Shown: positions 1,086 to 17,553 of the stretch, piece after piece
How the letters are laid out: every line of letters starts with the position of its first letter
Position numbering within the stretch: position 1 is the stretch's first letter
Source of the DNA: Bacilli bacterium
Lineage (GTDB): Bacteria > Bacillota_I > Bacilli_A > ML615J-28 > CAG-313
Direction of reading: 5' to 3'
NCBI GenBank assembly: GCA_017398545.1
Contig: JAFQFT010000011.1
Location: 31,429-95,428 of the forward strand
DNA: 64,000 nt
Made by a program: the position numbers and the translations under genes
Notes under the pieces: model-generated
Databases searched by the model: none
Seen by the model: only the letters and a program-made list of their open reading frames with translations
What the model was told of the DNA's origin: nothing

Positions 1086-1134
1086 TTGATAATTTTCAAA
1101 ATTATCTATGTTGATAATTTTCAAAATTATCTAT
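1086..1134. repeat. Tandem 25-bp duplication, each unit a palindrome
   Basis: TTGATAATTTTCAAAATTATCTAT twice; core GATAATTTT-C-AAAATTATC at 1088-1106 and 1113-1131. Confidence 0.9.
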
Positions 1135-1150
1135 TGGAATTATGCAAAAT

Positions 1151-1783: not shown

Positions 1784-2127
1784 ATATTGCTATCCTCCTA
1801 AAAATGAAATAACATGTTTAAACAAGATAAGTTATTTAAAAAATAAATTCATTATTACCATAATATAAATATTAACTCTATTTTAAATATAAGTAAAAAG
1901 AAAAAAATAACTTTTAATAATCCATTGTCTTTTAATATAAATAGCTAGATATTATCATTTTTTATAATAATATTTTAACATAACATTATAATTTTTTCAA
2001 TATTTTGACTATAAATAATATAATAAAAAATAATTAAATATTTAAATTATATTTTCTATAAAAATAAACTTAGTTCATTAAGTAGAAACTAATCGTTAAA
2101 AGTATTATAACTAATTTTTTGTTTTTG

Positions 2128-2301
2128 ATGTGCCAAAATTTTATTTTAGATTTACCCTAAAATAATGTACTAACTAGTATTTAAATCTAAATTAAGTATA
2201 TTGCATATGGGCTAATTAATATAGACCATACTGCAGCTATTTTCTTAACTTAAGTCACATTAAATACATTAGTTATTTATATTCATCATTTTGGATAACA
2301 A
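2128..2301 (-). repeat. Structured element copy A (putative ncRNA or cis element); strand tentative
   Basis: Core 2170-2301 aligns with 11387-11518; nested stems with compensatory changes. Confidence 0.7.
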
Positions 2302-2307
2302 ATTAAC

Positions 2308-2343
2308 AAAAATATTAGTCCTCTTTTAAGACTAATATTTTTT
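2308..2343 (-). terminator. Intrinsic terminator after the DUF3307 gene
   Basis: AAAAATATTAGTC...GACTAATATTTTT inverted repeat. Confidence 0.65.
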
Positions 2344-2347
2344 AAGA

Positions 2348-3088
2348 TTACTTAATAATTAATAAAGCTAATATCGCAATTATCAAACTAAATAATGTTC
2401 CAACTAAATACTTTTCAGCAAAATCTTTATCTTCTAATTGCTTAAACCTAGCAAGAGATTTTGCTGTTAAAACTAATGCAATCGAACCATACAAACCAAG
2501 TACACCCAAAAGTAATATTACTACTCTTTCTAACATTCCAATTAATGCACCTACATTATCTGACTCAACATTTTCACAAATATCTTTTTTATTAAAGATA
2601 TAATTAAAGAAATGTTTTATAAATACTGATGCTGGAGATAAAACAATTAAGAATGCTAAAATATAATTAATAATTATATTATGACCTATTTCTTTTAAAA
2701 ATGAAATATTATATACTGCATCACCTATAGAATTCAAATTTGATTTAATAACAAGTGAAATAGTTACCAGTAATAAAACATGTATAATTTGATCAACTAT
2801 AAAACTCCAAAATGAAAAAGCATTATTGTTAAATTTTTTTGTAATTTTAATTCTAAAATAATCAATTAAAAAATGTGAACCAAAAACTAAAAATGACCAA
2901 AAGATAATTTCCCAAATGTTTCCAAATAGTAACAATACTAAAGTAATCATTATAGTATAAATTAAACTATGTATAATAAGTCCTTTTATACTATTTTTCT
3001 TTTTTTCAACCAACTTAACAGGTTGCAAGAAAAAATCACCTATTAAATGAGCTATTAATAATAATTTTAGAATATCCATTTCTTTCAC
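2348..3088 (-). CDS. DUF3307-family membrane protein (SatE-like)
   Basis: AHLIGDFFLQ, HSLIY, HFLID, DQIIH motifs plus GALIGMLER...AKSLARF...AEKYLVGTL; GTGA overlap with satD. Confidence 0.85.
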   Translation of the reverse strand: MKEMDILKLLLIAHLIGDFFLQPVKLVEKKKNSIKGLIIHSLIYTIMITLVLLLFGNIWEIIFWSFLVFGSHFLIDYFRIKITKKFNNNAFSFWSFIVDQIIHVLLLVTISLVIKSNLNSIGDAVYNISFLKEIGHNIIINYILAFLIVLSPASVFIKHFFNYIFNKKDICENVESDNVGALIGMLERVVILLLGVLGLYGSIALVLTAKSLARFKQLEDKDFAEKYLVGTLFSLIIAILALLIIK

Positions 3089-3942
3089 CCCCTATATTCT
3101 TTTTTCATATATTCAAAAACCAAACATTCTAATTTTCTAATTTCATCAAATTTGCCTAAAGCCCTAATCTTTTCAATATTATGTCTACTTACTTTTAATA
3201 ACATTGAACAAACAGAATTTAATTTAGTTGCAAACCTTGGCCCAAATAATTTATGAAACTTTTCTTCTCTTCTAAAATAATTGTATCTGACTTCATCGAA
3301 TAACATATCTTTAATATCATTAGAAGTATTTTCATCAAAATCATAAGTCAATACATTTTGTTTTAATTTATCTATAATAAAGTTTGCAATTTTATTGATG
3401 TTTTGTCCTTCATATTTAATTTCTAATGGATATAACAAATTAAATAAATCAAAGACATCAGCTTGTCTATTTGTATGATCAAAATTAAGTAATTCAACAG
3501 TGCTCATTACTTGATTTACTAGGTTATCATTTACTTCATTACATGAATATAATAAAAAACCATATTTCTCAAATTTACAATCATTTAGTGCTGAAATAGC
3601 ATAATGATACGCTTCACCGTCAAACATATTTGTACTACGATAATCTTTTTCTAATATTCTTTGATTTAACATTCCGTATCCTATCCCACATCTAACTTGA
3701 TATGGATAAAATAAATTTCTTATAAAGCAATAACAACTAAAAGCATCAGAAACATCTTTAAATAATGCTTGAATAGAATCTCCAGATGAAAATTCAAATG
3801 ATTTCACTAATTCTTTTGAATAATATTCATTAATAAACTGAATGATAGAAAATAACTTATCTTGAATATAAAATCTTTGTTCATCATCATATGTTCTAGA
3901 ATGTTGTATATCTAAAATAATAGCAGCATAATTATTACTCAC
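3085..3942 (-). CDS. satD: SatD family protein (nucleotide-cyclase-like fold)
   Basis: YAAIILDIQHSR, GDSIQAL, VRCGIGYG, DGEAYHYA motifs; start moved to GTG 3942 behind RBS GAGGTGA. Confidence 0.8.
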   Translation of the reverse strand: MSNNYAAIILDIQHSRTYDDEQRFYIQDKLFSIIQFINEYYSKELVKSFEFSSGDSIQALFKDVSDAFSCYCFIRNLFYPYQVRCGIGYGMLNQRILEKDYRSTNMFDGEAYHYAISALNDCKFEKYGFLLYSCNEVNDNLVNQVMSTVELLNFDHTNRQADVFDLFNLLYPLEIKYEGQNINKIANFIIDKLKQNVLTYDFDENTSNDIKDMLFDEVRYNYFRREEKFHKLFGPRFATKLNSVCSMLLKVSRHNIEKIRALGKFDEIRKLECLVFEYMKKEYRG

Positions 3943-3960
3943 AGTATTCACCTCGCTATT

Positions 3961-4062
3961 ATTATATCATATTAAATATTAAAATGCAACCTAAATAAGT
4001 TGCATTTTTAATTTGCAACCTAAATAGGTTGCATTTCCGTTTTGCAACCGAAACAGGTTGCA
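3961..4062 (-). promoter_or_regulatory. satD promoter with three tandem 20-bp palindromic operators
   Basis: TGCAACC-N6-(A/G)GTTGCA at 3985-4004, 4014-4033, 4043-4062; TTGCAT-17-TATAAT with its -35 overlapping the first palindrome. Confidence 0.8.
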
Positions 4063-4090
4063 AACTGAAATTATAATCAAAACTAAATAC

Positions 4091-4187
4091 AAAAAAACCA
4101 CTACCTAGGATAGTGGTTTTATTATTCTAACTACTTAAAGCAGTAGAAACACCTGAAATGCAGGAGGTGCAAACACCTATAATTTAC
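4091..4187 (-). ncRNA. Candidate ~95-nt small RNA
   Basis: Lies between a consensus promoter and a terminator (AAAACCACTA...TAGTGGTTTT + T run); three hairpins; no ORF. Confidence 0.55.
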
Positions 4188-4193
4188 ATATAA

Positions 4194-4222
4194 ATTATAC
4201 CATTTTAGAAAGAAAATGTCAA
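4194..4222 (-). promoter_or_regulatory. Consensus sigmaA promoter
   Basis: TTGACA-17 bp-TATAAT with extended -10 TG. Confidence 0.8.
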
Positions 4223-4235
4223 TGTTTTCTCATTT

Positions 4236-4739
4236 TTATTCAAATGATTTAATTATATTTGAATTTTCATATATATAAATTTTTTTACTATTTGTTATCT
4301 TTCTATAATATTCTAAAGCCTTATCAGAATAAATTTTAACTGGAGGAATATAATATCCTTTTTTCTTTAGTCCATTATGTTCATAATTGATAACAGCAAC
4401 AGAAACAATATATATATTTTTTGAAGCATAATACTTTTTAAATTTCACGCTAATAGCATTTATATCAAGTTTAATTATTTTTTTATTCTTTATTTTCTTA
4501 AAACAAATACCTATACGAAAATAATATATTGATTTAATTATAAAAAATAAGAAAATCAAAAATAAAAAAGGAATTACAAAAAAATAAATTCTTTTAGCAT
4601 ATTTAAGGTCTTCGCTAGTCAATGCTAAAAATGCACATGCGATAATAAAAAATAAAGGAAGTAATGCTGTAAAAAAATAATTACTATAAATTTTCTTTAT
4701 TGTAATGTTATTTTTTATATTAATTGTTTTTTTTGACAT
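4236..4739 (-). CDS. Hypothetical basic membrane protein (2 TM)
   Basis: RBS AGGAGG, two hydrophobic segments. Confidence 0.6.
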   Translation of the reverse strand: MSKKTINIKNNITIKKIYSNYFFTALLPLFFIIACAFLALTSEDLKYAKRIYFFVIPFLFLIFLFFIIKSIYYFRIGICFKKIKNKKIIKLDINAISVKFKKYYASKNIYIVSVAVINYEHNGLKKKGYYIPPVKIYSDKALEYYRKITNSKKIYIYENSNIIKSFE

Positions 4740-4868
4740 ACACTTAACCTCCTAATATTTTATAGGTATTTTTTTAATATGATTAAACAAATATTTATTT
4801 AAAGTTTCGTTTTTTTTATTTTACCACATTATTAAATTATTTTCAATATTTCATAAAAAAATGAGCTT

Positions 4869-6479
4869 TTAATCTAAGCTCATTTCTATAAATTTATATA
4901 TAATTTTAATTTCTCTTGTTTTTTCTCCGTTAATTTCTTTTTTATATCCAATAACTATTCTTGAAACTAAATCATTTACCATATCTTGTGTTATTTTTAT
5001 TTCATCAATATATTAAAATGCAACATCTTTTAAATTTTTTAGTGAATCTTCAGTAACTGGAGATTTTTTTATTTCTTCTTCTAACTTTAAAATTTTATCT
5101 TTTAGTTCTTTTTGTTCACTTTTATACTCTCCTAATAATGTTTTATATGTGTCTATATCTATTAGTCTTGATGCATAGTCTTAATAAAGGTTTCTTATTA
5201 TTGTGATTAATGTAGTTTGTCTAGTTTTATATTTCTTTAATAATCCTTCATTTATGTTTAAATTAGTATTCTTTTTTAATTCTTCTTTTAATAATTCAAT
5301 TACTTCATCATTTCTTTTAACCGTTGATATAAAGCTTCTTAAGCTCTTATCTACAATTGTTTTAATTGTATTATATGTTATAGTATTTGATTTAGGACAT
5401 CTTGCTATATTATCACGATGTCTTTGGCATTTATAAAAACATCTTGAAGATCCAGTTCTTTCTTTTTGAGTTATTAAAACCATTCTTCCCCCACAGTTAG
5501 CGCAAAAGATTATTCCTTTAAAGAAATTTTCTGAATCATGAACTTTCTTTGTGCTTCTAGATTCAAGAATTTTTTGTACTTCATTAAACTCTTCTTGAGT
5601 TACTATTGGTTCATGTGTACCACATACAATTATTCTTTGATCTATTGGAACTTTTACTACTTTTTTTGTTTTATAGTTTTCTATTTCATACTTTCTATTT
5701 ACCATGTCACCAACATATACTCTATCTTTCAAGATTGCGTTAATTGTAGCTGGAATCCATACTCCACGTCTTTTAAATGTATTATCTTTTATATATCTAT
5801 CAAATCTTGTATCCCCATTTAATGATTTATAGGTTGCAGGATTAACAATATTTTCAGACATAAGAGTATTTGCAATAATCGTTGAACCTTTTTTGTCAAG
5901 TGCCATATCAAATATTTTTCTTACTACTTGTGCTGCTTCTGGATCAATAATAAGTTTATTTTTATTAGTAGGATCTTGTTTATAACCATATGGGGCTTGA
6001 GATGCGATAAAATATCCATTCATTGCTCTTTGACGCTTTGCTATTTTTATTTTTCTTGATAAATCTTTTGCATACATATCATTTAAGATATTTTTAAATG
6101 GAGCAATATCATTATTATTTGATAATGTATCTACATTATCAGTTATTGCAACATATCTTACATGTTTTGTTGGGAAGTATATTTCTGTATAATAACCAGT
6201 TTGAATATAATCCCTTCCAAGTCGTGATAAATCTTTTGTTATGACCATATTAATCTTCCCTATTTCAATATCAGATATCATTCTTTGAAATGAAGGTCTA
6301 TTATAATTTAAGCCTGAAAATCCATCATCAACATATATATCAATTATTTCTAAACTATGTTCTACACAATACTTCTCTAATATCATTTTTTGAGTAATGA
6401 TACTTTCAGAATCTCCTACATTTCCATCGTCACTTGAAAGTCTACAATAGAGTCCTACTTTGTAGATGTTATCAATCAT
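4869..6479 (-). pseudogene. Large serine recombinase (resolvase, recombinase, Zn-ribbon, C-terminal coiled coil) with two in-frame TAA stops
   Basis: YCRLSSDD, DDGFSG, KDLSRLGR, APYGY, HEPIV, CANCG motifs. The frame stays recombinase-like past TAA 5181-5183 and TAA 5013-5015 (LY*DYASRLID...LVSRIVIG...REIKIIYKFI) to a stop at 4869, overlapped by a hairpin. Confidence 0.85.
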
Positions 6480-6609
6480 TACTTTTTCCCCTTTTTATAA
6501 TTTTAGCTACAATTTTAGCAAGAAATGCTTCTAGCTTTTCAATATTATCAAATTCTTCTTTAATGATGTATTTAACACCATCTATATACATTACTTTATC
6601 TTTTTCCAT
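6472..6609 (-). CDS. Small TnpW-like protein upstream of the recombinase (45 aa)
   Basis: MEKDKVMYIDGVKYIIKEEFDNIEKLEAFLAKIVAKIIKRGKSND; RBS GAGGGAG; overlaps the recombinase start. Confidence 0.6.
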   Translation of the reverse strand: MEKDKVMYIDGVKYIIKEEFDNIEKLEAFLAKIVAKIIKRGKSND

Positions 6610-6677
6610 TGTGCTCCCTCATATAATCTCTATTCTACTTACATTATATGAAGGTGTAAGGTCAAATATTGTCCCTA

Positions 6678-7211
6678 TCAATTATAATATTTATCAATAT
6701 ATGCTTCTATTAAAATTTGATAAGCTTTATTTGGATGTTTTATTATACGGCCATATTCTTGATATAGTATTACTTGTGTAAATGCGTAAGCATCAATATC
6801 TACTTCCTTTGAGTTATATTCTACTAAAGACGCCTTATCATTTAGGTTAATTGGTGTAAAGTGATTAACTAGTACATTCTCCCATCTTTTGTGTCTATCT
6901 GTTTCATGATCTCTTGCTTTATAGATTTAGTATACGTGTCTTAACTCATGAGCAATAGATTTAAGACATTCTTTATGATTGTACAAGTATTTTCTATTGA
7001 TTTCAATATGTGCTGGATATTCTAAAACTAATCTACTGTCAACACTTAAGTTTTCAAAACATATTGGTAGTGCTTCTACTCCTAAGAATACTGAGATATT
7101 TATACAGTCTTTTACAAGTACTTCTTCTTCCTCCCAGTGATCTTCTCTAAAATTTTTAATGGACTTTTTTTTAGTTCTTCATCATTATATAGTTTTTTCT
7201 TTATTAATCAT
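6678..7211 (-). pseudogene. HExxH metallopeptidase (ImmA/IrrE-like) pseudogene
   Basis: SIAHELRHVY*IY...EVDIDAYAF; in-frame TAA at 6927-6929 and a frameshift in an A8 run near 7165-7172. Confidence 0.7.
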
Positions 7212-7316
7212 ATCCCTGACCTTCATTTCTATAAACATTTTTGTGACACTTACATTAACTAATCTTAAATTTCATATTATAATTAAAGTAATATTTTATA
7301 TATATAGGGATTTGTT

Positions 7317-7811
7317 ATGAATAGATTAAAAGAATTAAGAGAAGAAAAAAATTTATCAACTAGAGGTCTTGCAGCAATGGTTGATATTAATCATATGGCC
7401 ATTAATTATTATGAGAATGAAAAAAGAGATTTTAATACTACTGCATTAAAAACTCTTTCTATATTCTTTGATGTGACAATAGATTATCTTCTTTGTCATA
7501 GTAGTTATTATTTATTTGTTAATTATCATAATATTATGTTAAAAGTTAATGAAGAAGATTATAAGTTACTATATAAAGATGGATTTATATATTTTGATAA
7601 TAATAAAAGATATATTAATTTAAATAAACTTATAGGATTAGATAATGATAATGATTTATTTGATTTTATAATTGATTTATATAGACACAAGAGATTAGAT
7701 GGATTGTTTGATAAGAATGATACATCTATATTTGAAAAAAATAATGATGTTGTAGAGATTATATTAGATAAAGAATTTATAGAATATATGAAGAAATCAT
7801 TAGAGTTATAA
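7317..7811 (+). CDS. Xre/Cro HTH repressor (ImmR-like)
   Basis: MNRLKELREEKNLSTRGLA...YENEKR...FFDVTIDYLL; divergent from the peptidase. Confidence 0.85.
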   Translation: MNRLKELREEKNLSTRGLAAMVDINHMAINYYENEKRDFNTTALKTLSIFFDVTIDYLLCHSSYYLFVNYHNIMLKVNEEDYKLLYKDGFIYFDNNKRYINLNKLIGLDNDNDLFDFIIDLYRHKRLDGLFDKNDTSIFEKNNDVVEIILDKEFIEYMKKSLEL

Positions 7812-7870
7812 TGGAAAGAGAGATCTTTCCTTTATTTTGCCTTCTCCTATTAATTTCATTAATCCATAAA

Positions 7871-7913
7871 AACACTCCGCAAGCCCTTTTTTTTCAAGTG
7901 CTTGCGGAGTTTG
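7871..7913. terminator. Likely bidirectional terminator between convergent genes
   Basis: ACTCCGCAAGC...GCTTGCGGAGT stem. Confidence 0.65.
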
Positions 7914-7914
7914 T

Positions 7915-8148
7915 CTAATCATTTTTATTATTTTGTTTTTTCACTAATGCTCTACCTCTTAAATATATCAAAGTACCAATTGTTTCAACAATAACAAACA
8001 AAAACAATACTCCCAAATATTGTCGTAGACTAGCTTTTTCATATATACTTTCAATCAGCCAAAATAAGCTAATTATAGGACCACTTATCCATAATAATTT
8101 TCCTGAAAAAATATATATAACTCCAAATGAAGAATTTAAATCTTTCAT
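7915..8148 (-). CDS. Small 2-TM membrane protein
   Basis: RBS GGAGG, two hydrophobic helices, 25 bp downstream of the large gene. Confidence 0.65.
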   Translation of the reverse strand: MKDLNSSFGVIYIFSGKLLWISGPIISLFWLIESIYEKASLRQYLGVLFLFVIVETIGTLIYLRGRALVKKQNNKND

Positions 8149-8173
8149 ATAGCCTCCGCTTTCATGTTTTAAA

Positions 8174-11140
8174 TTAGATAACAGTTATTGCTATTGTACC
8201 GATATAACTATCGTCGTATTTATTTATGCATGTTATAGTTACAGTTCCTTTAGAAACACCATGTACTATACCATAAATATCCACAGTGGCAATAGAATTA
8301 TCACTGCTAGTCCAAACATAATCTTGCCTTATATTAGTAGGCCCACCTGATACAATGCATATACTACGTGTATATCCAACATGAACTGTTGTTTCTCCTG
8401 CATTACCACCTAATTTCGAATATTCTGTTCCGTTTAATGATTCATCAACATTGGAATCAGTTGTTAGCGAAACAATTGAAGTTGATCCAGCCTTTTCATA
8501 AACTATAATTTCAAGTGTAGCTACATGGTTAAGGTTATATTTATCTGTTACCCTTATAATAGTACTTCCAACCTTCTTCGCAAAAACAGTTCCGAATGCA
8601 CTTACTGTGGCAACAGACGGATCTGTACTCATCCATACGTAATCGTTATATCTTGAATCAAATTCAGCATCATTTCCTAGATATAATACTCTTGTAAAAC
8701 CTATCGCTATAGTATTATAATATCTATCTCCATTATTAACAGTAACTTCTGTTCCCAATCCTGTTGTTTCTGTAGCGTAATCAGTTTCAGTTGTTATTGT
8801 AAAAGAATACGCTGGACATTCCTCAATAAAGAATGTATAATCTATTAAATCGTTGCCATTAAAATATCCAAAATACAATATATCGCCTTTTAGCAGCTGT
8901 ATATCTAAACTAATTGTTAATTTTGAAACATTACATTTGATAAAATTTTCCAAGGTCAATGAATTATCATGTAATTTATACACAACAAAAATCATATTAT
9001 TTTGCGTTTGACCATTATTAGTAAAACTATAACTTACTTTATAGTTGCTATTATACGGAATATTAACAAATGATAGTTTATCTCCGATATTTGATGCTAA
9101 TTTGTATTCTTCACTTAATTGATACTCTTCCTGTACATTTAATAAATTATAATGTATTTCACCACTTGATGGAATATTAAACCTTACATAATAATAATTT
9201 CCTTTTTCTAGAAAAACATTAATACTACTGAAATTTTGAATAGAAATAGCATCATTTGTATAACTTTCAATACTAAATTTATCTATAATATTCATTCCTT
9301 CATCATATATTTCAAAACCAATTGGGATTTCAATAGAATTATTTATACTATACATTTCCATTGTATATAAATCATCTTGTGTACAATAAATTTTTATAAT
9401 ACTTTCATTACTACCTGATAGAATATAATCATTTAATATTATTTCCTTTGTACTTGTGATTTGAAACGGTTTTATTGACACATCATATGCTCGAGAATTT
9501 TGTGGAAAATGTCCTATTTCCACCTCAAAGTAATATTTTTTTTCTTTATCAAAAATAAAAGATACAGTTCCATAATTAGATGCTACTACTTTATCATTTT
9601 CATATAATTTTATTGTAGAATGTGTTGGGACACTTATGGTATAATATCCTGAATACTCAGGCGTAAAGGAAAAACTATCATATTTTCCATCTTGTATCAT
9701 ATAACCTCTTGTTTTCTCAAAAATAGTAACATTTTTATGTTGCTTTTTACCTAATAATAAATTAAAAGATGATGTTGCAATACCAATTTCTTCAAATGAA
9801 TCATTTGATTCATTAGCATATGAAATTTGAATTCTTGAACCATATGTTAAGTAAGCTTCACTTTTTGAAACACTATCCAAATCCCAATGATAACTGATAT
9901 AGTTGTACTCAGGAAATCCTAAATCATCATAAGTTATTGGTCTAAATACTAGTGCATTATTATTATTACTTGTTATACTTTTTGCATCAATTTTCCATAA
10001 ACTATTGTTTTTATCAATTTGCTCTGTTCTTCCACCTAAATTATAATCACTTGGGTTATTATTTAATTCCTTCAATTCATATCCAATATGAGTATCACCT
10101 ATTTTGTAATCAAGAACAACATAACAATCGTACACTATTTGACCAATATCCAAGGCCTTACCAATTTTTGGGTTTATCATTCCAATACCTTCCAATAAAA
10201 TATTAGCTTTTGATTGATTGGCAGTTTGTAAATCAACATTAACTGAGGATATTCCATATCCACTATATAATGCATATGAACGATTAATAATATAACCAGA
10301 ATCTAAATTGACATCATAAGTAGAATCAAATACATTATTCATATGTGCATTTGTTATATTAACAAAAGCAAATGAATCCTTAATAGCATATAAATCTTTA
10401 TTTGGTTGAGTTTCCTCATAATTTTGTTGATATACATAACCATATATACATGATTCCTTTTCATCAGTAGGTTTAGGAAGTGGAATTACGACATCAGAAT
10501 AAGATGAATACGCCTCACTATCTAAACTTAACTTAAAATTTTCAATAACAATTTCACTGTTATTATAAAATATATATTCACTCAAGTAAATAAATGTAAA
10601 AACATATAAAGGTGTAATCGTATATGTGAACTCTTCTTCACTTAGATTATATATAGCTTCTATATCATAAATAAATACATCAACTAAATTTGCAGTTTTT
10701 AAATCACCATTAGAAGAGTAAGCTTTAGTATTAACGAAAAATCCATATTCTTTCCCTGTATATGTATATATTCCTCTATGAATAAATAATTCCTTAGGTA
10801 CTAAATATATAATAGGATCATCTCCATGTATAGTAGCGTTACCATTTGAAAAAATAGTAGGCTTTTTAGTATAATCCATATAAAAGCCACAAAAAGAATG
10901 CCTTGGATCGTTATAATTATGAACATTTACATTATAAAAATCCGCCCACTCTGGAATATCTTTACTATTAGTATAATCATCATAATCACCTTCAGTAATT
11001 GTTAAACTTGTATTCATCTTATCTAAGACGCTTGATTCAGTTGGTGTAGAAACACTTGCATGAACATCAAAATTACTAACTGAAACAAACACAATTACTA
11101 TTAATGTAAAAATTATAATAACTTTTAAAATTTTTTTCAT
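8174..11140 (-). CDS. Large secreted protein with two C-terminal Big_2 Ig-like domains
   Basis: Signal peptide (MKKILK...VHA); repeats YVWMSTDPSVATVSAFGTV and YVWTSSDNSIATVDIYGIV; RBS AGGAGG. Confidence 0.8.
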   Translation of the reverse strand: MKKILKVIIIFTLIVIVFVSVSNFDVHASVSTPTESSVLDKMNTSLTITEGDYDDYTNSKDIPEWADFYNVNVHNYNDPRHSFCGFYMDYTKKPTIFSNGNATIHGDDPIIYLVPKELFIHRGIYTYTGKEYGFFVNTKAYSSNGDLKTANLVDVFIYDIEAIYNLSEEEFTYTITPLYVFTFIYLSEYIFYNNSEIVIENFKLSLDSEAYSSYSDVVIPLPKPTDEKESCIYGYVYQQNYEETQPNKDLYAIKDSFAFVNITNAHMNNVFDSTYDVNLDSGYIINRSYALYSGYGISSVNVDLQTANQSKANILLEGIGMINPKIGKALDIGQIVYDCYVVLDYKIGDTHIGYELKELNNNPSDYNLGGRTEQIDKNNSLWKIDAKSITSNNNNALVFRPITYDDLGFPEYNYISYHWDLDSVSKSEAYLTYGSRIQISYANESNDSFEEIGIATSSFNLLLGKKQHKNVTIFEKTRGYMIQDGKYDSFSFTPEYSGYYTISVPTHSTIKLYENDKVVASNYGTVSFIFDKEKKYYFEVEIGHFPQNSRAYDVSIKPFQITSTKEIILNDYILSGSNESIIKIYCTQDDLYTMEMYSINNSIEIPIGFEIYDEGMNIIDKFSIESYTNDAISIQNFSSINVFLEKGNYYYVRFNIPSSGEIHYNLLNVQEEYQLSEEYKLASNIGDKLSFVNIPYNSNYKVSYSFTNNGQTQNNMIFVVYKLHDNSLTLENFIKCNVSKLTISLDIQLLKGDILYFGYFNGNDLIDYTFFIEECPAYSFTITTETDYATETTGLGTEVTVNNGDRYYNTIAIGFTRVLYLGNDAEFDSRYNDYVWMSTDPSVATVSAFGTVFAKKVGSTIIRVTDKYNLNHVATLEIIVYEKAGSTSIVSLTTDSNVDESLNGTEYSKLGGNAGETTVHVGYTRSICIVSGGPTNIRQDYVWTSSDNSIATVDIYGIVHGVSKGTVTITCINKYDDSYIGTIAITVI

Positions 11141-11345
11141 TATACAACCTCCTTGTATATGCTATGTGCATAATTTAAAGCTCATCTTCACCAAAATAAT
11201 CAAATGTTTTTCCCCTATTTAATTCTAAATACTTTAAGGTAATTATTAGAAATATTTTTAAAGTATGAGTTATATGTTTATTATATCATATTTATTACAT
11301 AAAAAAAGAAAAAAATAAATTATTTTTTTAGGATTTTATTCTTAT

Positions 11346-11518
11346 TGTGCCTAACTATCACCTTAAATTAGTAATTAAATAATATCCTAACTAACCTTTA
11401 AACTTAAGTTAAGTACGCTGCATAGGGGCTAATTAGTATAGTCCCTATTGCATCATTTTCCTTAACTTGCGGCACATTAAATATATTAGTTATTTATAAT
11501 CATCATTATGGATAACAA
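11346..11518 (-). repeat. Structured element copy B (putative ncRNA or cis element); strand tentative
   Basis: Homologous to 2128-2301; TGTGCC...GGCACA closing stem spans the same 131 nt. Confidence 0.7.
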
Positions 11519-11541
11519 TATGTGAACTGGGAAGAGTCCCG

Positions 11542-11676
11542 TTTCAACCTAACTATGGATATGGATGTTGTCAACAACAAACTACTTCTTGTGGTAGCAA
11601 CTTTGGTGGTTATGGCTACGCTTTAATTCTAGTATTATTCATTTTATTAGTAATTATCGGTACTGCAAGATGGTAA
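11542..11676 (+). pseudogene. YjcZ/SscA-family sporulation peptide lacking its start codon
   Basis: FQPNYGYGCCQQQTTSCGSNFGGYGYALILVLFILLVIIGTARW*; family signature ALIxVLFILLxIxG; no in-frame ATG or RBS; terminator 11685-11711. Confidence 0.75.
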
Positions 11677-11731
11677 TAAAATTTAAAAGGGAGCTTTATG
11701 CTCCTTTTTTTAATAATTAATTTAAGTATTT

Positions 11732-11790
11732 AAAAAAGTGGCGGGGAAATTCCCCGCCTTTCAGTTGACCAAGACCTTCCGGTCAGCCCA
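11732..11790 (-). other. GC-rich double hairpin (possible sRNA plus terminator)
   Basis: GACC-GGAA-GGTC followed by GGCGGGGAA-T-TTCCCCGCC and a T run on the minus strand. Confidence 0.45.
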
Positions 11791-11953
11791 AAAAGTAATA
11801 TTACATTTATATATTTTATCATATCATAAATATTAAAATAAATCATCATATTTATGAACTTTTATTTTAACATTTATATTTAGTTTTACAATTAAAATAA
11901 TTAATATTTAACTGATATAAATCATACCTAAATATTGTTTAAAAGAACTTGTA

Positions 11954-12823
11954 TTAAATTACTATTGATTCACTTATCGAAAATATTTTTTTTCCTAAAT
12001 CTTTAATTGAATGTCCTAAATGATATAAACTATTTTGATCTATTATAATATATCTATCATGAACCTTAGTAGTATATCTAACGTTCAAACCCCCATACTG
12101 ACTGTTAAACGCATTAATATCAATACCTAACAATCTTGAATTTATACTAGTATAAATAATAACTTGAACATTGTTTTTCTTTACTACTAATCTATCAAGT
12201 ATTGTTCTATCTACATAATTATCAATTATTATAATTTCGTTATTGGCTTTTTCAATTAGCGATTGTACAAATGCATACGCATCATAAATCTCTCCATCAA
12301 AAAATAATTGTGAATTTTTAAATTCATGAGGCTTGTACTCTTTTTCAATACAACTAACTCTTTCATCTAAAGATTCGACTTTATTAATCAATTTAACATA
12401 ATTTTCATTAGTAACTAATGATCTTTCTTCATTTATAACATAACCTTTTAATAGATATTCCTTTAATACATTATTAGCCCATTTTCTAAATATTACTCCC
12501 ATTATTGAGTTAACTCTATATCCAACCGAAATAATTACATCTAAATTAAATAATTTTATGTCTACTTTTGTTTTTCTCATCTTTCCAGTACGTGGATCAT
12601 ATTTATTTAGCTCAGTTGCAAAAAATGCAACACAGCTATTTTCATCTAATTCATTTATTTGAAATATATTTTTTATATGTCTTGAAATAACAGATTTATC
12701 TCTCTCAAACAACAAAGCAATTTGATCTAATGAAAGCCATATCGTATTTTCAAAAGGAGATACCTTAACATCTATTTCCAAATTATTATTATTAAACTTT
12801 ATTATTTCATAAATTTCCTTCAT
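11954..12823 (-). CDS. RhuM-family protein with C-terminal PLD-like domain; probable terminal frameshift
   Basis: TIWLSLDQIALLFERDKSVISRHI, NLDVIISVGYRVNS, FRKWA, HDRYIIID...LGHSIKDLGKK; another frame continues SNLIQVLLNNI* to 11928. Confidence 0.85.
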   Translation of the reverse strand: MKEIYEIIKFNNNNLEIDVKVSPFENTIWLSLDQIALLFERDKSVISRHIKNIFQINELDENSCVAFFATELNKYDPRTGKMRKTKVDIKLFNLDVIISVGYRVNSIMGVIFRKWANNVLKEYLLKGYVINEERSLVTNENYVKLINKVESLDERVSCIEKEYKPHEFKNSQLFFDGEIYDAYAFVQSLIEKANNEIIIIDNYVDRTILDRLVVKKNNVQVIIYTSINSRLLGIDINAFNSQYGGLNVRYTTKVHDRYIIIDQNSLYHLGHSIKDLGKKIFSISESIVI

Positions 12824-13124
12824 GTGTTCCCTCCATTAATTCTACCCCTCTTAAAATAACATCTAATTCAGTATTTAACGCACTTGCATATTTAACTAAA
12901 AAGAATATAGTTGGTGAATTACTCATGTTTTCAAATCTAGTAATTTGTTGACGCATTACACCCATTTTTTCAGCAATCTCTTGTTGAGTGTAACCGGATT
13001 TTTCTCTTAAAAATATAAATTGCATTACTATTTTAGCTCTAAGCCATAGTTCTTGTTCTTCGATTGCCATTTCTTTTAATTCATTATGATTGTAAATTTC
13101 TAACACTTTATTTAAATTTTTCAT
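12807..13124 (-). CDS. Xre HTH protein (HigA antitoxin-like)
   Basis: LREKSGYTQQEIAEKMGVMRQQITRFENMSNSPT. Confidence 0.75.
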   Translation of the reverse strand: MKNLNKVLEIYNHNELKEMAIEEQELWLRAKIVMQFIFLREKSGYTQQEIAEKMGVMRQQITRFENMSNSPTIFFLVKYASALNTELDVILRGVELMEGTHEGNL

Positions 13125-13415
13125 ACTTACACCTCAATTGTATTGTATCATATCTTTACAATCTTCGCAACATTTTTGTTTCATTATATTAAAAAATCTA
13201 ACTTAGATATAGATATGTAATTTAACCTAATATACTACAAAAATTTCCTGATCATAAAAATATACTAACTTATATAAACTTGCAATTTGCGTTTTTAGCA
13301 AATTCCCTTATGTATTAATTTTTTATCATTTAATACATCTACTTTAAATTTTTCAATTGCTAACTTCTCTCTTATAAAAATAAAACTAGGTATTCTATTT
13401 TTATCAATAAAATGT

Positions 13416-13493
13416 TTTCAACCTAACTATGGCTACGCTTTAATTCTAGTATTATTCATTTTATTAGTAATTATCGGTACTGCAAGATGGTAA
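13416..13493 (+). pseudogene. Second, internally deleted YjcZ-like fragment
   Basis: Identical to 11542-11676 except a 57-bp deletion between TATGG repeats; ATG at 13412 is out of frame by one extra T; terminator 13504-13530. Confidence 0.75.
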
Positions 13494-13592
13494 TAATTTA
13501 ATTAAAAAGGAGCAGTTGCTCCTTTTTTTTGTTATTTTTTTTTACAAATTAATAATAATATGATATAATATATCCATAAAGAGGTGATTTAT

Positions 13593-14183
13593 ATGGCAAA
13601 AAATAAAAAAGTTAAAAAACCAGGAATTCTAGCAGAATTCAAACAATTCATTACACGTGGTAATGTTGTTGATATGGCAACTGGGGTTATTGTTGCAAGT
13701 GCATTTACTAAAATCGTAACATCACTTACTAATAACGTATTCTTACCTTTAGTTAACTATATCGTATTCTTACTTACTGGTGGTAAAGAAGTATTATTAA
13801 TCACAGTACTTAACGGTGAGGATTACTTAGTTGAAACAACTGATGCTGCAGGTGTTGTGACTTCTTCTGTTAACCCAGAATGTATATATATTAACTGGGG
13901 TATTGTTGTTGAAGCAATTATCAACTTTATCTTAATTGCTGCTATTATTTTTACAATTGTAAAAGTAATTAATTCTACACGTAAAAAACTTGATGCAATC
14001 AAAGCTAAAGCTAATGAAGATGAACTTGCTGCTAAGAAAGCTGAAGAGGAAGAAGCTGCAAGAATCGCTGCTATTGAAGCAGAAAAAGCTGCTATCGCAA
14101 AAGCTGCTGCTGACAAGGCTAAAGCTGAAGAAACTTCAACTAATGCATTACTTGTAGAAATTATTAATTTACTTAATAAATAA
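13593..14183 (+). CDS. mscL: Large-conductance mechanosensitive channel with Ala/Glu/Lys-rich extension
   Basis: EFKQFITRGNVVDMATGVIV, INFILIA, LLVEI; promoter TTTACA-17-TATAAT at 13541-13569; terminator ~14193-14224. Confidence 0.9.
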   Translation: MAKNKKVKKPGILAEFKQFITRGNVVDMATGVIVASAFTKIVTSLTNNVFLPLVNYIVFLLTGGKEVLLITVLNGEDYLVETTDAAGVVTSSVNPECIYINWGIVVEAIINFILIAAIIFTIVKVINSTRKKLDAIKAKANEDELAAKKAEEEEAARIAAIEAEKAAIAKAAADKAKAEETSTNALLVEIINLLNK

Positions 14184-14278
14184 TTAGAATTAAACTACGA
14201 ATCATTTTGGTTCGTAGTTTTTTTCTTGATAAATTCATATAATTATAGTATAATTAAAATATGTGAGGTATAATTATT

Positions 14279-14857
14279 ATGATTACAATGAAAGATGTTA
14301 TTAGAGAAGGAAATCCATTATTAAAAGAAAAATCAGTTGATGTTAAAATTCCTTTATCTAAAGAAGATGAACAGTTGATGATTGATATGATGGAATATGT
14401 ATATAATTCATGTGATCCAGAACTAAATGAAAAATATGACTTACGTCCTGCTGTTGGACTTGCTGCTCCACAACTTGGTATTTTAAAGAAAATGATTGCA
14501 ATTGTAGCACCAGATGAAAATGGTGAGGAACATGAATTTGCACTTATTAATCCTAAACTAATTAGTTATTCAGATGAACTTACATACTTAGAAGGTGGTG
14601 AAGGATGTTTATCTGTTGATAGAGCATGTAATTCATTAATTCACCGTCCTGCAAGAGTAACTTTTGAAGCATACTTTTATGATTTAGATACAGGCAAATT
14701 AGAGAAAAAACGAATGAGACTAAAAGGGTACTTAGCAGTAGTATTCCAACATGAGTATGATCATTTAAATGGTATTTTATTTGTGGACCGTGAAAATAAA
14801 GAAAATCCATATTATATTCCAGAAAATTCTAAACCAATTAAATTTAATGAAGAATAG
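14279..14857 (+). CDS. def: Peptide deformylase
   Basis: GLAAPQ, EGCLS, QHEYDHL. Confidence 0.95.
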   Translation: MITMKDVIREGNPLLKEKSVDVKIPLSKEDEQLMIDMMEYVYNSCDPELNEKYDLRPAVGLAAPQLGILKKMIAIVAPDENGEEHEFALINPKLISYSDELTYLEGGEGCLSVDRACNSLIHRPARVTFEAYFYDLDTGKLEKKRMRLKGYLAVVFQHEYDHLNGILFVDRENKENPYYIPENSKPIKFNEE

Positions 14858-14891
14858 AAAAAAGATAGAAAGTTTTTGAACTTTCTATCTT

Positions 14892-15677
14892 TTATTTTTC
14901 ATTTAAAACATATTTTCTAACTGCATCTGCAAGGCCACCTTCTTCAATTAGTCCAGTGATATATGTTGCAGCAGATTTAGCAGCAGGAGTACATTTACCC
15001 ATTACAATGCTCGTATTACATAATTTAAACATTGGAACATCATTATCAGAATCGCCAAATGCATATGTATTTTTAATATCATAATTCATAATTTCTGTAA
15101 TTTTTTTAATTCCTGTTGCTTTATCACGATTAGCAGGTATTACGTCAGCTCCAAATACACCCCATTTAAAGAATGTTAATTCTTTAAAGTTCTTGCTTGT
15201 TTTATCTATTTCATCATTATTTCCAAGTAACCAAAATTGAATTACTTCACTAAAATAAAAATCATCTTCTTCTTTTAATAATATATATGGTCCAGGTACA
15301 TTTCTATCAAATGATACTTTAATTTCATCATTAAAATACATTCTTAAGTTACCATGTAATGTAGATGCTGAAAAAGATATTTTATTTTTAATCATAAATG
15401 TAACAACATTTTTTACAAGATCTTTATCTATGAAATCATAATAAGTTTTATCACCAATAATAAGGTGACCACCATTCGCAAGATTAAGTCCTGTAAAATA
15501 AGGAACTATATGTTCAACATCATTTAATGTATCACGCCCTCTACCACTAGATAAATATAAATCAATATCTGGATTATTTGATAATTCTTTTAATACTTCT
15601 AATGTAGATGGTTCTACAATTCTTTTTTTAGGCGTAAGTAGTGTTCCATCAACATCAAAGAATAATACTTTTTTCAT
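14892..15677 (-). CDS. Cof-type HAD-IIB hydrolase
   Basis: FFDVDGTLL, SSGR, AFGDSDNDVPM. Confidence 0.9.
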   Translation of the reverse strand: MKKVLFFDVDGTLLTPKKRIVEPSTLEVLKELSNNPDIDLYLSSGRGRDTLNDVEHIVPYFTGLNLANGGHLIIGDKTYYDFIDKDLVKNVVTFMIKNKISFSASTLHGNLRMYFNDEIKVSFDRNVPGPYILLKEEDDFYFSEVIQFWLLGNNDEIDKTSKNFKELTFFKWGVFGADVIPANRDKATGIKKITEIMNYDIKNTYAFGDSDNDVPMFKLCNTSIVMGKCTPAAKSAATYITGLIEEGGLADAVRKYVLNEK

Positions 15678-15678
15678 A

Positions 15679-17553
15679 CTATCTTATCTTTTTAATGGAA
15701 ACAACAATTAATGGTTTACGGTCCATTTTATTATATATAAATTGATACATTTGATTTGCTATTTGACGTTCTAATGCACTAAATGAAAGATTAGAATTAT
15801 CTTTATTTAAATTATTATATATTTCAACACACTTGTTTGATAACATTGAAATTAACTCATCTGCCTTATCTGGAGTTGAAAAGCCATTAAGTGTTACTAT
15901 CGGTTTATTAATAATCTCTTTTTTCTTATTAATAAAGAAAGTTGCACTAACTAATCCTTCATCAGCCATCTTTCTTCTTTCTTTTAGAACATTACTGTCA
16001 ACATCAGATAATGATCCATCTAAATATACATCGGATGCTTTAACTGCATCTTTTATAACAGTAGCACCAGTATTATTAATATTTAGTACATCACCAGGTG
16101 CAAGAACAAAACAGTTTTCTTTTTTAAGTCCTAAACCTAGTGCAATTTCAACATGCTTTCTCAACATGAAATATTCACCATGTACAGGAACAAAGTATTT
16201 TGGTTTCATAAATGATAACATCATTCTAAGTTCGTTTTGCGATGCATGTCCTGTTGTATGTGTATCTGTAAGTGGGTTGTTTTTTATTACGTGTGCTCCT
16301 GCATGAACTAGGTTATTAATATTTCTATTAATAAATTGTTCATTACCAGGAATAGGTTTAGAAGAATAAATTATTGTATCATCAGGTAGCAACTGAATTT
16401 GTTTATGAGTGCCTGCTGCAATTCTAGATAATGCCGCAAGAGGTTCACCTTGTGAACCAGTACAAAGAATTGTAACATGCTCAGTTTCAATCTTCTTTAA
16501 TTCTCTAGCACGAAGAATCCAACCTTTTGGAGCATCAATATAATTAAGCTTAATAGCTGCTTCTATTGTTTTTTCCATACTATGACCAAATACAATAACT
16601 TTTCTACCACATTCAATTGATGATGCAATTATTTGTTGTACACGATATACATTAGATGCAAAAGTTGCTACAATAATTCTACCTTCAATTTGATGGAATA
16701 AACTATCTAGTGTTTCTGCAATCTTTCTTTCACTTGATGAAAATTCATCAATGTTAGCGTTAGTACTTTCTGATAACAAACATACAACGCCTTCTTCACC
16801 AAGTCTAGTCATCTTATGAAAATCAGACATATGACCAAGTGGACTAAAGTCAAACTTAAAGTCACCACTATTTACAACATAACCATACTTAGTTTTTATT
16901 GCCATCCCATATGAATCTGGAATTGAGTGATTTGTTCTAAAAAATGAAACACTTGTGTTTTTATATTCAATTACATCATCACTTGTAAATTCTTTTAAGT
17001 TATATTCAATATCAGGAAATTCTGCTAATTTATTTTGAATTAAAGGTACCGCAATACCAGCAGCATAAATAGTTGGAATTTTTACTTTTTGTAGTAAAAA
17101 TGGTAATCCACCAATATGATCTTCATGTCCATGTGTTATAAATAAACCTGCAATACGACTTTCATTTTCAACTAGATGCGTAAAATCAGGAATGATATAG
17201 TTTACACCATGAACATCATCATCAGCAAACAGTACTCCCGCATCAATAACGATGATTTCATCATCTACTTCTACAACATACATGTTCATTCCAACAACAC
17301 CTAAACCACCTAGTGAATAAACTTTTACATTTTGTTCTTTAACAACTGGTTTTCTCCCTAATTCTTTTCTTGGTTTATATTTAACAACTTTTTTAGGTTC
17401 AACAGAAACATCAGTTGCAACTTCATTATTAGGTTCTTTCACTGGACTATTATTTACAACTTGTTCAGTATTTTGTTGTTTATTATTAGTTGGTTTTTTC
17501 TTCTTATAATATTTCTTTGGTTTATTAGAACTATTAGGTTGTTTATTTTCCAT
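15679..17553 (-). CDS. rnj: Ribonuclease J with low-complexity N-terminal extension
   Basis: HGHEDHIGG, NHSIPD, GSQGEP, HTTGHA, PVHGE. Confidence 0.95.
   Translation of the reverse strand: MENKQPNSSNKPKKYYKKKKPTNNKQQNTEQVVNNSPVKEPNNEVATDVSVEPKKVVKYKPRKELGRKPVVKEQNVKVYSLGGLGVVGMNMYVVEVDDEIIVIDAGVLFADDDVHGVNYIIPDFTHLVENESRIAGLFITHGHEDHIGGLPFLLQKVKIPTIYAAGIAVPLIQNKLAEFPDIEYNLKEFTSDDVIEYKNTSVSFFRTNHSIPDSYGMAIKTKYGYVVNSGDFKFDFSPLGHMSDFHKMTRLGEEGVVCLLSESTNANIDEFSSSERKIAETLDSLFHQIEGRIIVATFASNVYRVQQIIASSIECGRKVIVFGHSMEKTIEAAIKLNYIDAPKGWILRARELKKIETEHVTILCTGSQGEPLAALSRIAAGTHKQIQLLPDDTIIYSSKPIPGNEQFINRNINNLVHAGAHVIKNNPLTDTHTTGHASQNELRMMLSFMKPKYFVPVHGEYFMLRKHVEIALGLGLKKENCFVLAPGDVLNINNTGATVIKDAVKASDVYLDGSLSDVDSNVLKERRKMADEGLVSATFFINKKKEIINKPIVTLNGFSTPDKADELISMLSNKCVEIYNNLNKDNSNLSFSALERQIANQMYQFIYNKMDRKPLIVVSIKKIR

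What the first reader, a model, noticed from the sequence alone, without database searches (positions are those of the whole stretch)
11500..13530. Island apparently integrated at the start codon of a YjcZ/SscA-like sporulation gene (candidate skin-like element)
Seen: two copies of a small spore-peptide gene start at the same sequence, TTTCAACCTAACTATGG (11542 and 13416), each followed by its own terminator. Copy 1 reads ccG-TTT-CAA, which would be the last G of a lost ATG. Copy 2 reads ATG-T-TTT-CAA (out of frame) and has a 57-bp microhomology deletion. Neither has an RBS, and the DNA left of each is island cargo. A large serine recombinase lies ~5 kb left. Known: serine recombinases excise elements that interrupt sporulation genes (skin in sigK, SPbeta in spsM). 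Inference: this tiny gene is an integration hotspot. Either excision rejoins promoter/RBS/ATG to the coding body, or tandem islands left displaced gene copies. I do not know of yjcZ as such a target.
Basis: partly seen in the sequence, partly recalled or inferred. Interest (0 to 1): 0.8.

Follow-up and report, generated by a model that had tools for sequence, protein, structure and literature searches.

The report
Defence islands stacked at spore-peptide gene
A tiny sporulation-peptide gene in an uncultured gut bacterium is a repeatedly used landing site for gene islands that bring their own replacement copy of the gene, so the gene stays whole and the two start-less copies are just displaced leftovers, not a gene waiting to be rejoined.

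Summary
The same 17-mer starts two start-less, RBS-less YjcZ-family gene bodies at 11542 and 13416. Each has a terminator, and the second has a 57-bp deletion.

The skin-like reading does not hold. An intact copy with a strong RBS, reading ATG-TAT-CAA-CCT, lies 2.76 kb left of the window (C6:28666-28803), directly beside core genes. Its body is identical to copy 1.

Among the 9 relatives examined:
- 5 have one gene at this site and no island.
- One has only the 1.9-kb segment plus the same deleted tail.
- One has a different 8.4-kb island with the same right end and a start-less copy.
- One, from another genus, has a peptide-biosynthesis cluster flanked by the gene and a 3' remnant of it.
- One could not be assessed.

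So islands insert between codon 2 and about codon 17. Each brings a promoter-less body plus terminator that fuses to the resident promoter and ATG, and the old body is pushed rightwards. This resembles the tandem accretion known for SCC and ssrA islands.

The recombinase is not established. The island's large serine recombinase carries two premature TAA codons here, although a 95%-identical intact 536-aa form exists elsewhere. The related 8.4-kb island has no recombinase. Cargo is mostly anti-phage defence candidates.

This is a new target gene for a known kind of element, of moderate interest.

The parts
1..11541 (.). In-window part of the newer, 14.3-kb composite island. It begins outside the window at C6:28672, just after ATG-TAT of the intact gene (intact gene = C6:28666-28803 = window -2762..-2625 = L001:17238-17375).
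   Evidence: Absent from G006, which is otherwise 96% identical on both sides. Flanked by core genes on the left (UPF0223, YlbD, rpsP). The intact copy is shown.
1..2294 (.). In-window part of the 4,869-bp 'A' module (C6:28854-33722). It holds a 465-aa AAA_15/AAA_21 ATPase, a 206-aa ORF and a zinc-ribbon membrane protein.
   Evidence: Contigs of runs X3, X5 and X9 join L163 x1354 to x6224, skipping this module. Its depth is low in X4, X5 and X9. The ATPase matches PADLOC HEC-02A, PD-T4-4_A and AriA-like models.
2117..2301 (+). Second copy of the 'R' block, 77% identical to 11334-11518.
2348..3951 (-). DUF3307 (2348-3088) and SatD-family (3085-3951) gene pair, cargo.
   Evidence: Pfam.
4869..6479 (-). 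Large serine recombinase pseudogene. The ORF runs 5181-6479 (432 aa). Premature TAA codons lie at codon 433 (5181-5183) and codon 489 (5013-5015). The natural stop is at 4869-4871.
   Evidence: Resolvase, Recombinase and Zn_ribbon_recom domains. Reading through recovers the C-terminus. Homologues are 522-560 aa. P0001 is 95% identical, 536 aa and intact, with E and K at the two stop positions.
6681..7178 (-). ImmA/IrrE-like metallopeptidase remnant (HELRH motif) with an in-frame TAA at 6927-6929.
   Evidence: Translation. The family name is recalled from the HExxH context and was not run against Pfam.
7317..7811 (+). 164-aa XRE-type HTH gene. A homologue lies at the left end of the G004 island, and a 5'-truncated copy lies at the left end of this island (C6:28997-29354).
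8174..11140 (-). 988-aa protein with a hydrophobic N-terminus (read by eye) and two Big_2 domains, cargo.
11334..11518 (+). 'R' block, a conserved ~185-bp sequence with a hairpin of about 15 pairs at the right end of the island. The G004 island has it at 86% identity.
11519..11544 (+). Element-side arm of the right junction (aatatgtgaactgggaagagtcccgTTT), shared with the G004 island. Homology to the gene starts at CAACC.
11542..11676 (+). Copy 1: displaced start-less gene body (codons 2'-45 plus stop), identical to the body of the intact copy.
   Evidence: PF09680 match.
11689..11711 (+). Terminator of copy 1. This sequence follows the intact gene in G006.
11677..13415 (.). Older 1.87-kb island remnant between copy 1 and copy 2. 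G006 has it at 96% identity.
11743..11790 (-). DUF3800-XI RNA motif (RF02975), just 3' of the RhuM-like gene.
   Evidence: 45.9 bits against a gathering score of 37.8, E = 1.1e-7.
11954..12823 (-). 289-aa RhuM-family protein, PADLOC candidate defence family PDC-S05.
   Evidence: Pfam. PADLOC 281.6 bits. Multicopy in relatives, 35 of 61 genomes.
12807..13124 (-). 105-aa HTH_3 protein.
   Evidence: 100% identical in G006.
13416..13493 (+). Copy 2: the oldest displaced body, with a 57-bp internal deletion. It is preceded by an out-of-frame ATG-T.
   Evidence: The same deletion is present in G006.
13509..13530 (+). Terminator of copy 2, the original chromosomal terminator next to mscL.
13584..17553 (.). 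Right core flank: mscL, def, a Cof-type HAD hydrolase and RNase J.
   Evidence: Pfam. Syntenic in relatives.

Best explanation
The single-copy YjcZ-family gene between the UPF0223 gene and mscL is an attachment site for integrative islands.

How it works. Each island carries, at its left end, a promoter-less and start-less copy of the gene running from CAACC (codon 3) through the terminator. Insertion happens between codon 2 and about codon 17. The island's body is fused to the resident promoter, RBS and ATG-TAT, so the gene stays intact. The previous body is left start-less at the island's right end.

Consequence of the design. The rebuilt left junction is nearly the same as an empty site, so the site can be used again. 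New arrivals always land next to the promoter and push older ones to the right.

The array in this genome, left to right:
1. Intact gene, outside the window.
2. A 14.3-kb composite island.
3. Copy 1.
4. A 1.87-kb older remnant.
5. Copy 2, which is decaying and carries the 57-bp deletion.
6. mscL.

What is shown and what is inferred. The architecture, the order of events and the empty sites are shown. The enzyme is inferred. It is most likely a large serine recombinase of the type encoded in the island, which is dead here but intact in other samples. That enzyme may also act in trans on recombinase-less islands, as Ccr recombinases do on tandem SCC-like cassettes. The cargo is mainly candidate anti-phage defence genes.
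For: - Intact copy. It has aaggaggtg-N5-ATG TAT CAA CCT and lies at C6:28666, beside core genes UPF0223, YlbD, rpsP, khpA, rimM, trmD and rplS. Its body is identical to copy 1.
- Family. TIGR01732 scores 38.1 bits against a cut-off of 21.35. PF09680 scores 37.3 against 21.
- Relatives. Nine loci were fetched. Five have one gene and no island: G005, G010, G007, G014 and G012. G006 has intact gene, RhuM, HTH and the 57-bp-deleted tail. G004 has intact gene, an 8.4-kb island and a start-less copy. G016 has intact gene, an 8.7-kb cluster and a 3' remnant plus terminator. The G009 contig ends inside the gene and cannot be assessed.
- Right end. The left flank of the G004 start-less copy is homologous to that of copy 1 (R block at 86% plus the arm) and has the same boundary, cgTTT|CAACC.
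- Order of events. Copy 1's terminator and downstream DNA equal what follows the intact gene in G006, as expected if the 14.3-kb island displaced that body. Copy 2's terminator is the one next to mscL, as at the empty sites.
- Independent samples. The flank-to-copy-2 junction is bridged by contigs in X4, X5 and X9 (table 8).
- Recombinase. The island LSR is 95% identical to an intact 536-aa protein seen on 8 contigs.
- Cargo. PADLOC matches are PDC-S05, HEC-02A/PD-T4-4_A-like, PDC-S39 and PD-T4-6, plus methyltransferases in G004.
- Published analogues (abstracts read). Ccr recombinases mobilise tandem recombinase-less defence cassettes beside SCCmec (PMC11470126). 31 ssrA-specific islands are described in Dehalococcoides (PMC3146451).
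Against: - No excised circle, empty-site read or attP junction was seen. The one read-laying run used assembled contigs and listed only 15 of 62 joints.
- The LSR here has two premature TAA codons and sits mid-island, about 5 kb from the nearest end.
- The G004 island and the 1.87-kb remnant encode no recombinase.
- 0 of 92 loci (725 kb) with LSR homologues hold a yjcZ-like sequence. Those homologues are at most 67% identical, so this is a weak test.
- Identical right arms in the element and the chromosome are not what canonical LSR attP/attB pairs look like (recalled knowledge).
- No dyad symmetry above shuffled controls was found at the junction. The best was 10-11 of 18, and the shuffle mean for the best was 10.4.
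- The flank of copy 2 is unrelated to that of copy 1 apart from TTT.
- The remnant in G016 starts at a different point, about codon 34. Its cargo has no mobile-element genes in Pfam.
Confidence: 0.72

Rival explanations
1. Skin-like gene-intervening element. The sporulation gene is split by the island, and developmentally timed excision by the island's serine recombinase rejoins the promoter, RBS and ATG to the coding body.
For: The target is a sporulation-family gene, and a large serine recombinase gene lies in the island. Such elements are known in sigK, spsM, spoVFB, spoVR and gerE (PMC5595907 and PMC4191935, passages read).
Against: A complete gene with RBS, ATG and terminator already stands at the left junction. 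The recombinase has two nonsense codons here. Excision would only swap one identical body for another. No recombination directionality factor was identified: the 45-aa ORF upstream of the LSR has no Pfam match.
Confidence: 0.03
2. No dedicated recombinase. Circular or incoming DNA carrying a start-less gene fragment inserts by a single homologous crossover (Campbell-type) in the ~190-bp body-plus-terminator homology. Islands are then exchanged between strains by flanking homology.
For: Homology between element and chromosome covers the whole body and terminator. Two of the three islands have no recombinase and the third has a dead one. The G016 remnant has a different boundary and ordinary biosynthetic cargo. 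No att-like symmetry was found.
Against: The same boundary, TTT|CAACC, occurs with two unrelated left flanks (copy 1 and copy 2). The element-side arm is conserved between own and G004. This model does not explain how a fragment cut exactly after codon 2 arose in the first place.
Confidence: 0.18
3. Decayed tandem paralogues. Local duplications of the gene lost their starts, and the intervening DNA is unrelated.
For: YjcZ-family genes are often multicopy. A fourth family member lies on contig C68.
Against: 5 of 9 relatives examined have a single gene at this site with nothing inserted. The DNA between copies differs between genomes and carries defence, recombinase and regulator genes. Copy 1 is identical to the intact body, so it is not an old paralogue.
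Confidence: 0.02
4. Assembly artefact. A metagenome-assembled genome joined strain variants at the repeated gene body, so the three copies are not in one chromosome.
For: The genome is a 76-contig bin with 4% contamination. The island is polymorphic between samples: a 4.87-kb module is skipped and a backward joint is present.
Against: The same architectures occur in G006 on a 410-kb contig and in G004 on a 63-kb contig. Contigs from three other runs bridge the copy-2 junction.
Confidence: 0.05

Closest known systems
SCC / SCCmec composite islands at rlmH in staphylococci, including tandem recombinase-less SCC-like defence cassettes mobilised by CcrAB/CcrC (PMC11470126, abstract read; other details recalled)
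   Same: Islands stack in tandem at one site in a conserved gene without inactivating it. A repeat of the target sequence marks every junction. Some units lack a recombinase. The recombinase, where present, is a large serine recombinase lying inside the element. Cargo is enriched in anti-phage defence.
   Different: The target is the 5' end of a 45-codon sporulation-peptide gene, not the 3' end of rlmH. The repeat is about 190 bp (nearly the whole ORF plus terminator) rather than about 15-20 bp. The LSR is not a Ccr: CcrB scores 111 bits against a cut-off of 900. Mobilisation is not shown here.
ssrA-specific genomic islands of Dehalococcoides (PMC3146451, abstract read)
   Same: Many different islands use one small conserved gene as the site. 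An integration module is present in only some of them (16 of 31 in that paper). The islands are a major source of strain diversity.
   Different: The target there is the tmRNA gene. Here it is a protein-coding gene, and the element replaces almost all of its coding sequence.
Elements that restore the gene they enter: phage 21 and e14 in icd, ICESt1/CIME accretion at fda, SXT at the 5' end of prfC
   Same: The element carries a substitute for the displaced part of the target gene, so function is kept and a pseudo-copy is left at the other junction.
   Different: Those elements replace a short 3' end, or for SXT supply a new 5' end and promoter. Here the host keeps only the promoter, RBS and two codons, and the element supplies 43 codons plus the terminator.
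skin, SPbeta, vfbin, vrin and gin gene-intervening elements (PMC5595907 and PMC4191935, passages read)
   Same: The target is a sporulation gene, and a serine recombinase is in the element. gin shows that small genes (gerE, 225 bp) and non-phage elements can be involved.
   Different: Those elements split the reading frame, so the gene works only after excision. Here the frame is never split.

Membership tests
YjcZ family sporulation protein (TIGR01732 / PF09680) | Profile match above the curated cut-off | tested here: met
   TIGR01732 38.1 bits (cut-off 21.35). PF09680 37.3 bits (cut-off 21).. All three copies and a fourth on C68 match.
YjcZ family sporulation protein (TIGR01732 / PF09680) | Expression during sporulation | not testable with these tools
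   No RNA run holds the stretch (0 on record as RNA). No sigma-70-type promoter was found on the + strand upstream. The neighbour is a YlbD coat-protein homologue.
Skin-like gene-intervening element | The element splits the coding frame, so no intact gene exists before excision | tested here: not met
   An intact 45-codon gene with RBS and terminator stands at the left junction.
Skin-like gene-intervening element | Functional element-encoded serine recombinase | tested here: not met
   Two premature TAA codons at codons 433 and 489. An intact relative, P0001, exists elsewhere.
Skin-like gene-intervening element | Sporulation-controlled directionality factor and mother-cell excision | not testable with these tools
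   No candidate was identified. The 45-aa and 77-aa ORFs near the LSR have no Pfam match.
Large serine recombinase | Resolvase + Recombinase + zinc-ribbon domains | tested here: met
   PF00239, PF07508 and PF13408 all score above their cut-offs.
Large serine recombinase | Complete C-terminal region (coiled coil / DUF4368) | tested here: not met
   The ORF stops at 432 aa, while relatives are 522-560 aa. PF14287 is present in P0001 at residues 471-531, which lie beyond the first stop here.
SCC-type or CIME-type tandem accretion | Target-derived direct repeat at both ends and at internal junctions, with the target gene left intact | tested here: met
   Three copies in direct orientation, the leftmost intact.
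SCC-type or CIME-type tandem accretion | Recombinase-less members bounded by the same repeats | tested here: met
   The G004 8.4-kb island and the 1.87-kb remnant.
SCC-type or CIME-type tandem accretion | Recombinase-dependent excision and circularisation | not testable with these tools
   Only contigs were laid, and no circle junction is among the joints shown.
SCC proper (Ccr recombinases) | CcrA, CcrB or CcrC equivalog score | tested here: not met
   CcrB 111.1 bits against 900. CcrC 94.8 against 900. CcrA 66.9 against 700..

The most novel reading that the evidence does not exclude
The islands form an unrecognised class of 'body-swap' cassettes. Each arrival replaces the expressed allele of a spore peptide with its own and archives the old one as a silent copy. 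Island traffic would then drive allele turnover of a spore-envelope peptide, and the silent copies could serve as donors for gene conversion. The recombinase-less units, which end in the conserved hairpin-bearing R block, would be mobilised through that block by a mechanism not yet described.
Probability: 0.08. Interest if true: 0.6.

Novelty: new member of a known kind. Interest (0 to 1): 0.35.

Why it matters
It identifies a previously unreported integration hotspot, a YjcZ-family sporulation-peptide gene, in uncultured gut Bacilli. Defence-gene islands accumulate there in tandem. This extends the SCC-like accretion pattern to a new lineage and a new target.

It also serves as a caution. Start-less gene fragments next to a serine recombinase in a sporulation gene do not by themselves indicate a skin-like developmental switch. 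The far junction has to be checked first.

The 536-aa recombinase family (P0001) together with the deduced sites gives a directly testable candidate integrase and site pair.

Tried and rejected
1. Junction pattern in genome contigs. It gave 45 stretches. I read 6, and only L041 and L043 carry the junction; they match the G004 and G006 sequences. The other 4 read were chance matches. The remaining 39 were not read, because their titles name unrelated phyla.
2. The same junction pattern in metagenome contigs and viral contigs, and an R-block pattern in viral contigs, gave 0 matches each.
3. LSR-based locus search in metagenome contigs. 80 loci were kept of 479 relatives, the best at 67% identity over a partial match, and none was close. 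Together with 12 loci, that makes 92 loci with no yjcZ-like sequence: best tblastn E = 0.88, motif regex 0 hits.
4. P0001 in viral contigs gave 18 loci, the best 52% identical. The LSR against phage records was below 60% identity in all 682 records.
5. Dyad-symmetry scan of both junctions was no better than shuffles.
6. An apparent similarity between the sequence after R'' (window 2295-2345) and the junction arm was rejected. That stretch is a terminator hairpin for the DUF3307 gene.
7. R is not homologous to the 5' part of the HTH gene.
8. Read laying showed no joint between gene copies among the 15 listed; 47 were not shown. Parts without cover are not interpreted. The backward joint x15219 to x1620 is unexplained.
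9. The search of earlier findings was not open.
10. Literature. 'yjcZ' + 'integration' gave 18 papers; the titles of the 10 listed are not about mobile elements, and the other 8 were not seen. PMC5595907 and PMC4191935 have 0 mentions of yjcZ or sscA in their main text. Their supplementary tables of intervening elements could not be seen and might list more targets.
Full report
**Observation.** The 17-mer TTTCAACCTAACTATGG occurs twice in the window, at 11542 and 13416. None of 100 shuffles gave a match. Copy 1 (11542-11676) encodes 44 residues of a Gly/Cys-rich peptide with a hydrophobic tail and is preceded by ccG. Copy 2 (13416-13493) is preceded by ATG-T, which is out of frame. It lacks exactly 57 bp that are flanked by TATGG in copy 1. 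Both copies are followed by hairpin and T-run terminators, and neither has an RBS.

**The missing piece.** The window is G000:C6:31429-95428. A search of the whole genome for the shared 3' part found a third copy at C6:28666-28803, which is 2.76 kb left of the window. It reads aaggaggtggaact-ATG-TAT-CAA-CCT and encodes MYQPNYGYGCCQQQTTSCGSNFGGYGYALILVLFILLVIIGTARW. It has its own terminator, and from CAACC to the stop it is identical to copy 1. It matches TIGR01732 (38.1 bits, cut-off 21.35) and PF09680 (37.3 bits, cut-off 21). Immediately to its left are core genes: UPF0223, YlbD coat protein, rpsP, khpA, rimM, trmD and rplS. Immediately right of copy 2 are mscL, def, a Cof-type hydrolase and RNase J. 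The gene is therefore not interrupted. About 16 kb of foreign DNA lies between an intact gene and two displaced bodies.

**Relatives.** A DNA query across the site matched 27 of 31 genomes. I fetched the site from 9 relatives and mapped the flanking proteins.
- Five have UPF0223, one yjcZ gene, then (mscL and) def with nothing inserted: G005, G010 and G007 in the same genus, and G014 and G012 in other genera.
- G006 is 96% identical in its flanks. It has the intact gene, then the RhuM-like and HTH genes (99-100% identical proteins), then the same 57-bp-deleted tail, then mscL. It lacks the 14.3-kb island.
- G004 has the intact gene, an 8.4-kb island and a start-less copy whose left flank is homologous to that of copy 1. 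This covers the R block at 86% and the final arm, with the boundary cgTTT|CAACC.
- G016, from another genus, has the intact gene, an 8.7-kb cluster (asparagine-synthase-like, PqqD, transglutaminase-like, radical SAM and ABC transporter genes) and a 3' remnant of the gene plus terminator.
- The G009 contig ends inside the gene.

**Order of events (inferred).**
1. The DNA after copy 1, meaning its terminator and everything to the right, is what follows the intact gene in G006. Copy 2's terminator is the one beside mscL at empty sites.
2. The 1.87-kb element therefore came first and displaced the original body. That body then lost 57 bp before own and G006 diverged.
3. The 14.3-kb island came later and displaced the body that the first element had supplied.
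4. Each newcomer lands next to the promoter, because the rebuilt left junction is essentially an empty site again.

**The agent.** The island's serine recombinase ORF (5181-6479, - strand) has Resolvase, Recombinase and Zn-ribbon domains but stops at 432 aa. Reading on gives the missing C-terminus, with TAA at codons 433 and 489 and the natural stop at codon 537. Relatives are 522-560 aa. P0001 is 536 aa and 95% identical, was seen on 8 contigs, is intact, and has E and K at the two stop positions. The gene is therefore dead here but alive elsewhere.

Four points weigh against a proven role for this recombinase:
- It sits mid-island.
- The G004 island and the 1.87-kb remnant have no recombinase.
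- 0 of 92 loci with homologues hold a yjcZ-like sequence, although none of those homologues exceeds 67% identity.
- The junction shows no symmetry above shuffled controls.

The genome holds two further large serine recombinases on contig C4 and one tyrosine recombinase. Homologous, Campbell-type insertion through the ~190-bp homology remains a live alternative.

**Island content and polymorphism.** Cargo includes:
- An AAA_15/AAA_21 ATPase with PADLOC matches (HEC-02A, PD-T4-4_A, AriA-like).
- A DUF3307/SatD gene pair.
- A 988-aa Big_2 protein.
- A RhuM-family protein that matches PDC-S05 over its full length.

The G004 island carries PDC-S39, a PD-T4-6-type kinase, two DNA methyltransferases and a DUF6996/6997 protein.

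An ImmA-like remnant with an in-frame stop and a truncated second copy of the HTH gene show decay. In contigs from three other gut-metagenome runs a 4,869-bp module (C6:28854-33722) is skipped, and its depth is low in three runs. The copy-2 junction is bridged in three runs.

**Comparison with known systems.** The pattern works like SCC-type accretion at rlmH, where Ccr recombinases also mobilise tandem recombinase-less defence cassettes (PMC11470126, abstract). It also resembles the ssrA-specific islands of Dehalococcoides (PMC3146451, abstract). It is not an SCC: the Ccr models score far below their cut-offs. It fails the defining feature of skin-like elements, a split gene. Papers on gene-intervening elements name sigK, spsM, spoVFB, spoVR and gerE and do not mention yjcZ or sscA in their main text. 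A search for yjcZ with 'integration' listed nothing relevant among the 10 titles shown. Supplements could not be read.

**Verdict.** This is a new target gene for a known kind of tandem island accretion, with an unusual whole-ORF swap. The recombinase is unproven.

Noticed in passing
window 11743-11790 (- strand): A match to the Rfam DUF3800-XI RNA motif above the gathering score (45.9 bits against 37.8). It lies just 3' of the RhuM/PDC-S05 gene, inside the older island remnant.
   Followed up: no
window 11334-11518, 2117-2301; C6:28864-28968; L014 ~9009-9203: An ~185-bp 'R' block with a conserved hairpin of about 15 pairs (one compensatory pair among 3 sequences). It was found only in this island (3 copies) and at the right end of the G004 island, among 61 genomes. 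It always lies 200-330 bp upstream of a leftward cargo gene. The polymorphic 4.87-kb module starts and ends exactly at R copies. Its function is unknown.
   Followed up: partly
L163 x15219 -> x1620 (window 11290 -> C6:29119): Contigs of runs X3, X5 and X9 show a backward joint with 8 extra letters. It links the region upstream of the Big_2 gene to the truncated HTH copy. This points to a different module order or a circular form in other samples.
   Followed up: no
L018:4244-12702 (G016): A lasso-peptide-like biosynthetic cluster (asparagine-synthase-like, PqqD, transglutaminase-like, radical SAM and ABC exporter genes) occupies the same yjcZ site in another genus. It is flanked by the gene and a 3' remnant of it.
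   Followed up: partly
window 11954-12823 and 35 of 61 related genomes: The RhuM/PDC-S05 gene is highly multicopy and is often fragmented or at contig ends in this family of genomes. It behaves like a repeated or shuffled module.
   Followed up: no
G000:C4:4299-9640: A 17-kb contig carries two further large serine recombinase genes (open frames of 531 and 491 aa) and a small resolvase. This may be another mobile element and a possible trans-acting source of recombinase.
   Followed up: no
G000:C68:27479-27544 (- strand): A fourth YjcZ-family gene lies elsewhere in the genome. Whether it is also an insertion site was not checked.
   Followed up: no
L013 ~14089-14154 (G006 tail): In G006 the deleted tail copy has additionally lost its TGG and stop codon (TGC TAT). 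This shows continuing decay of the oldest displaced body.
   Followed up: no
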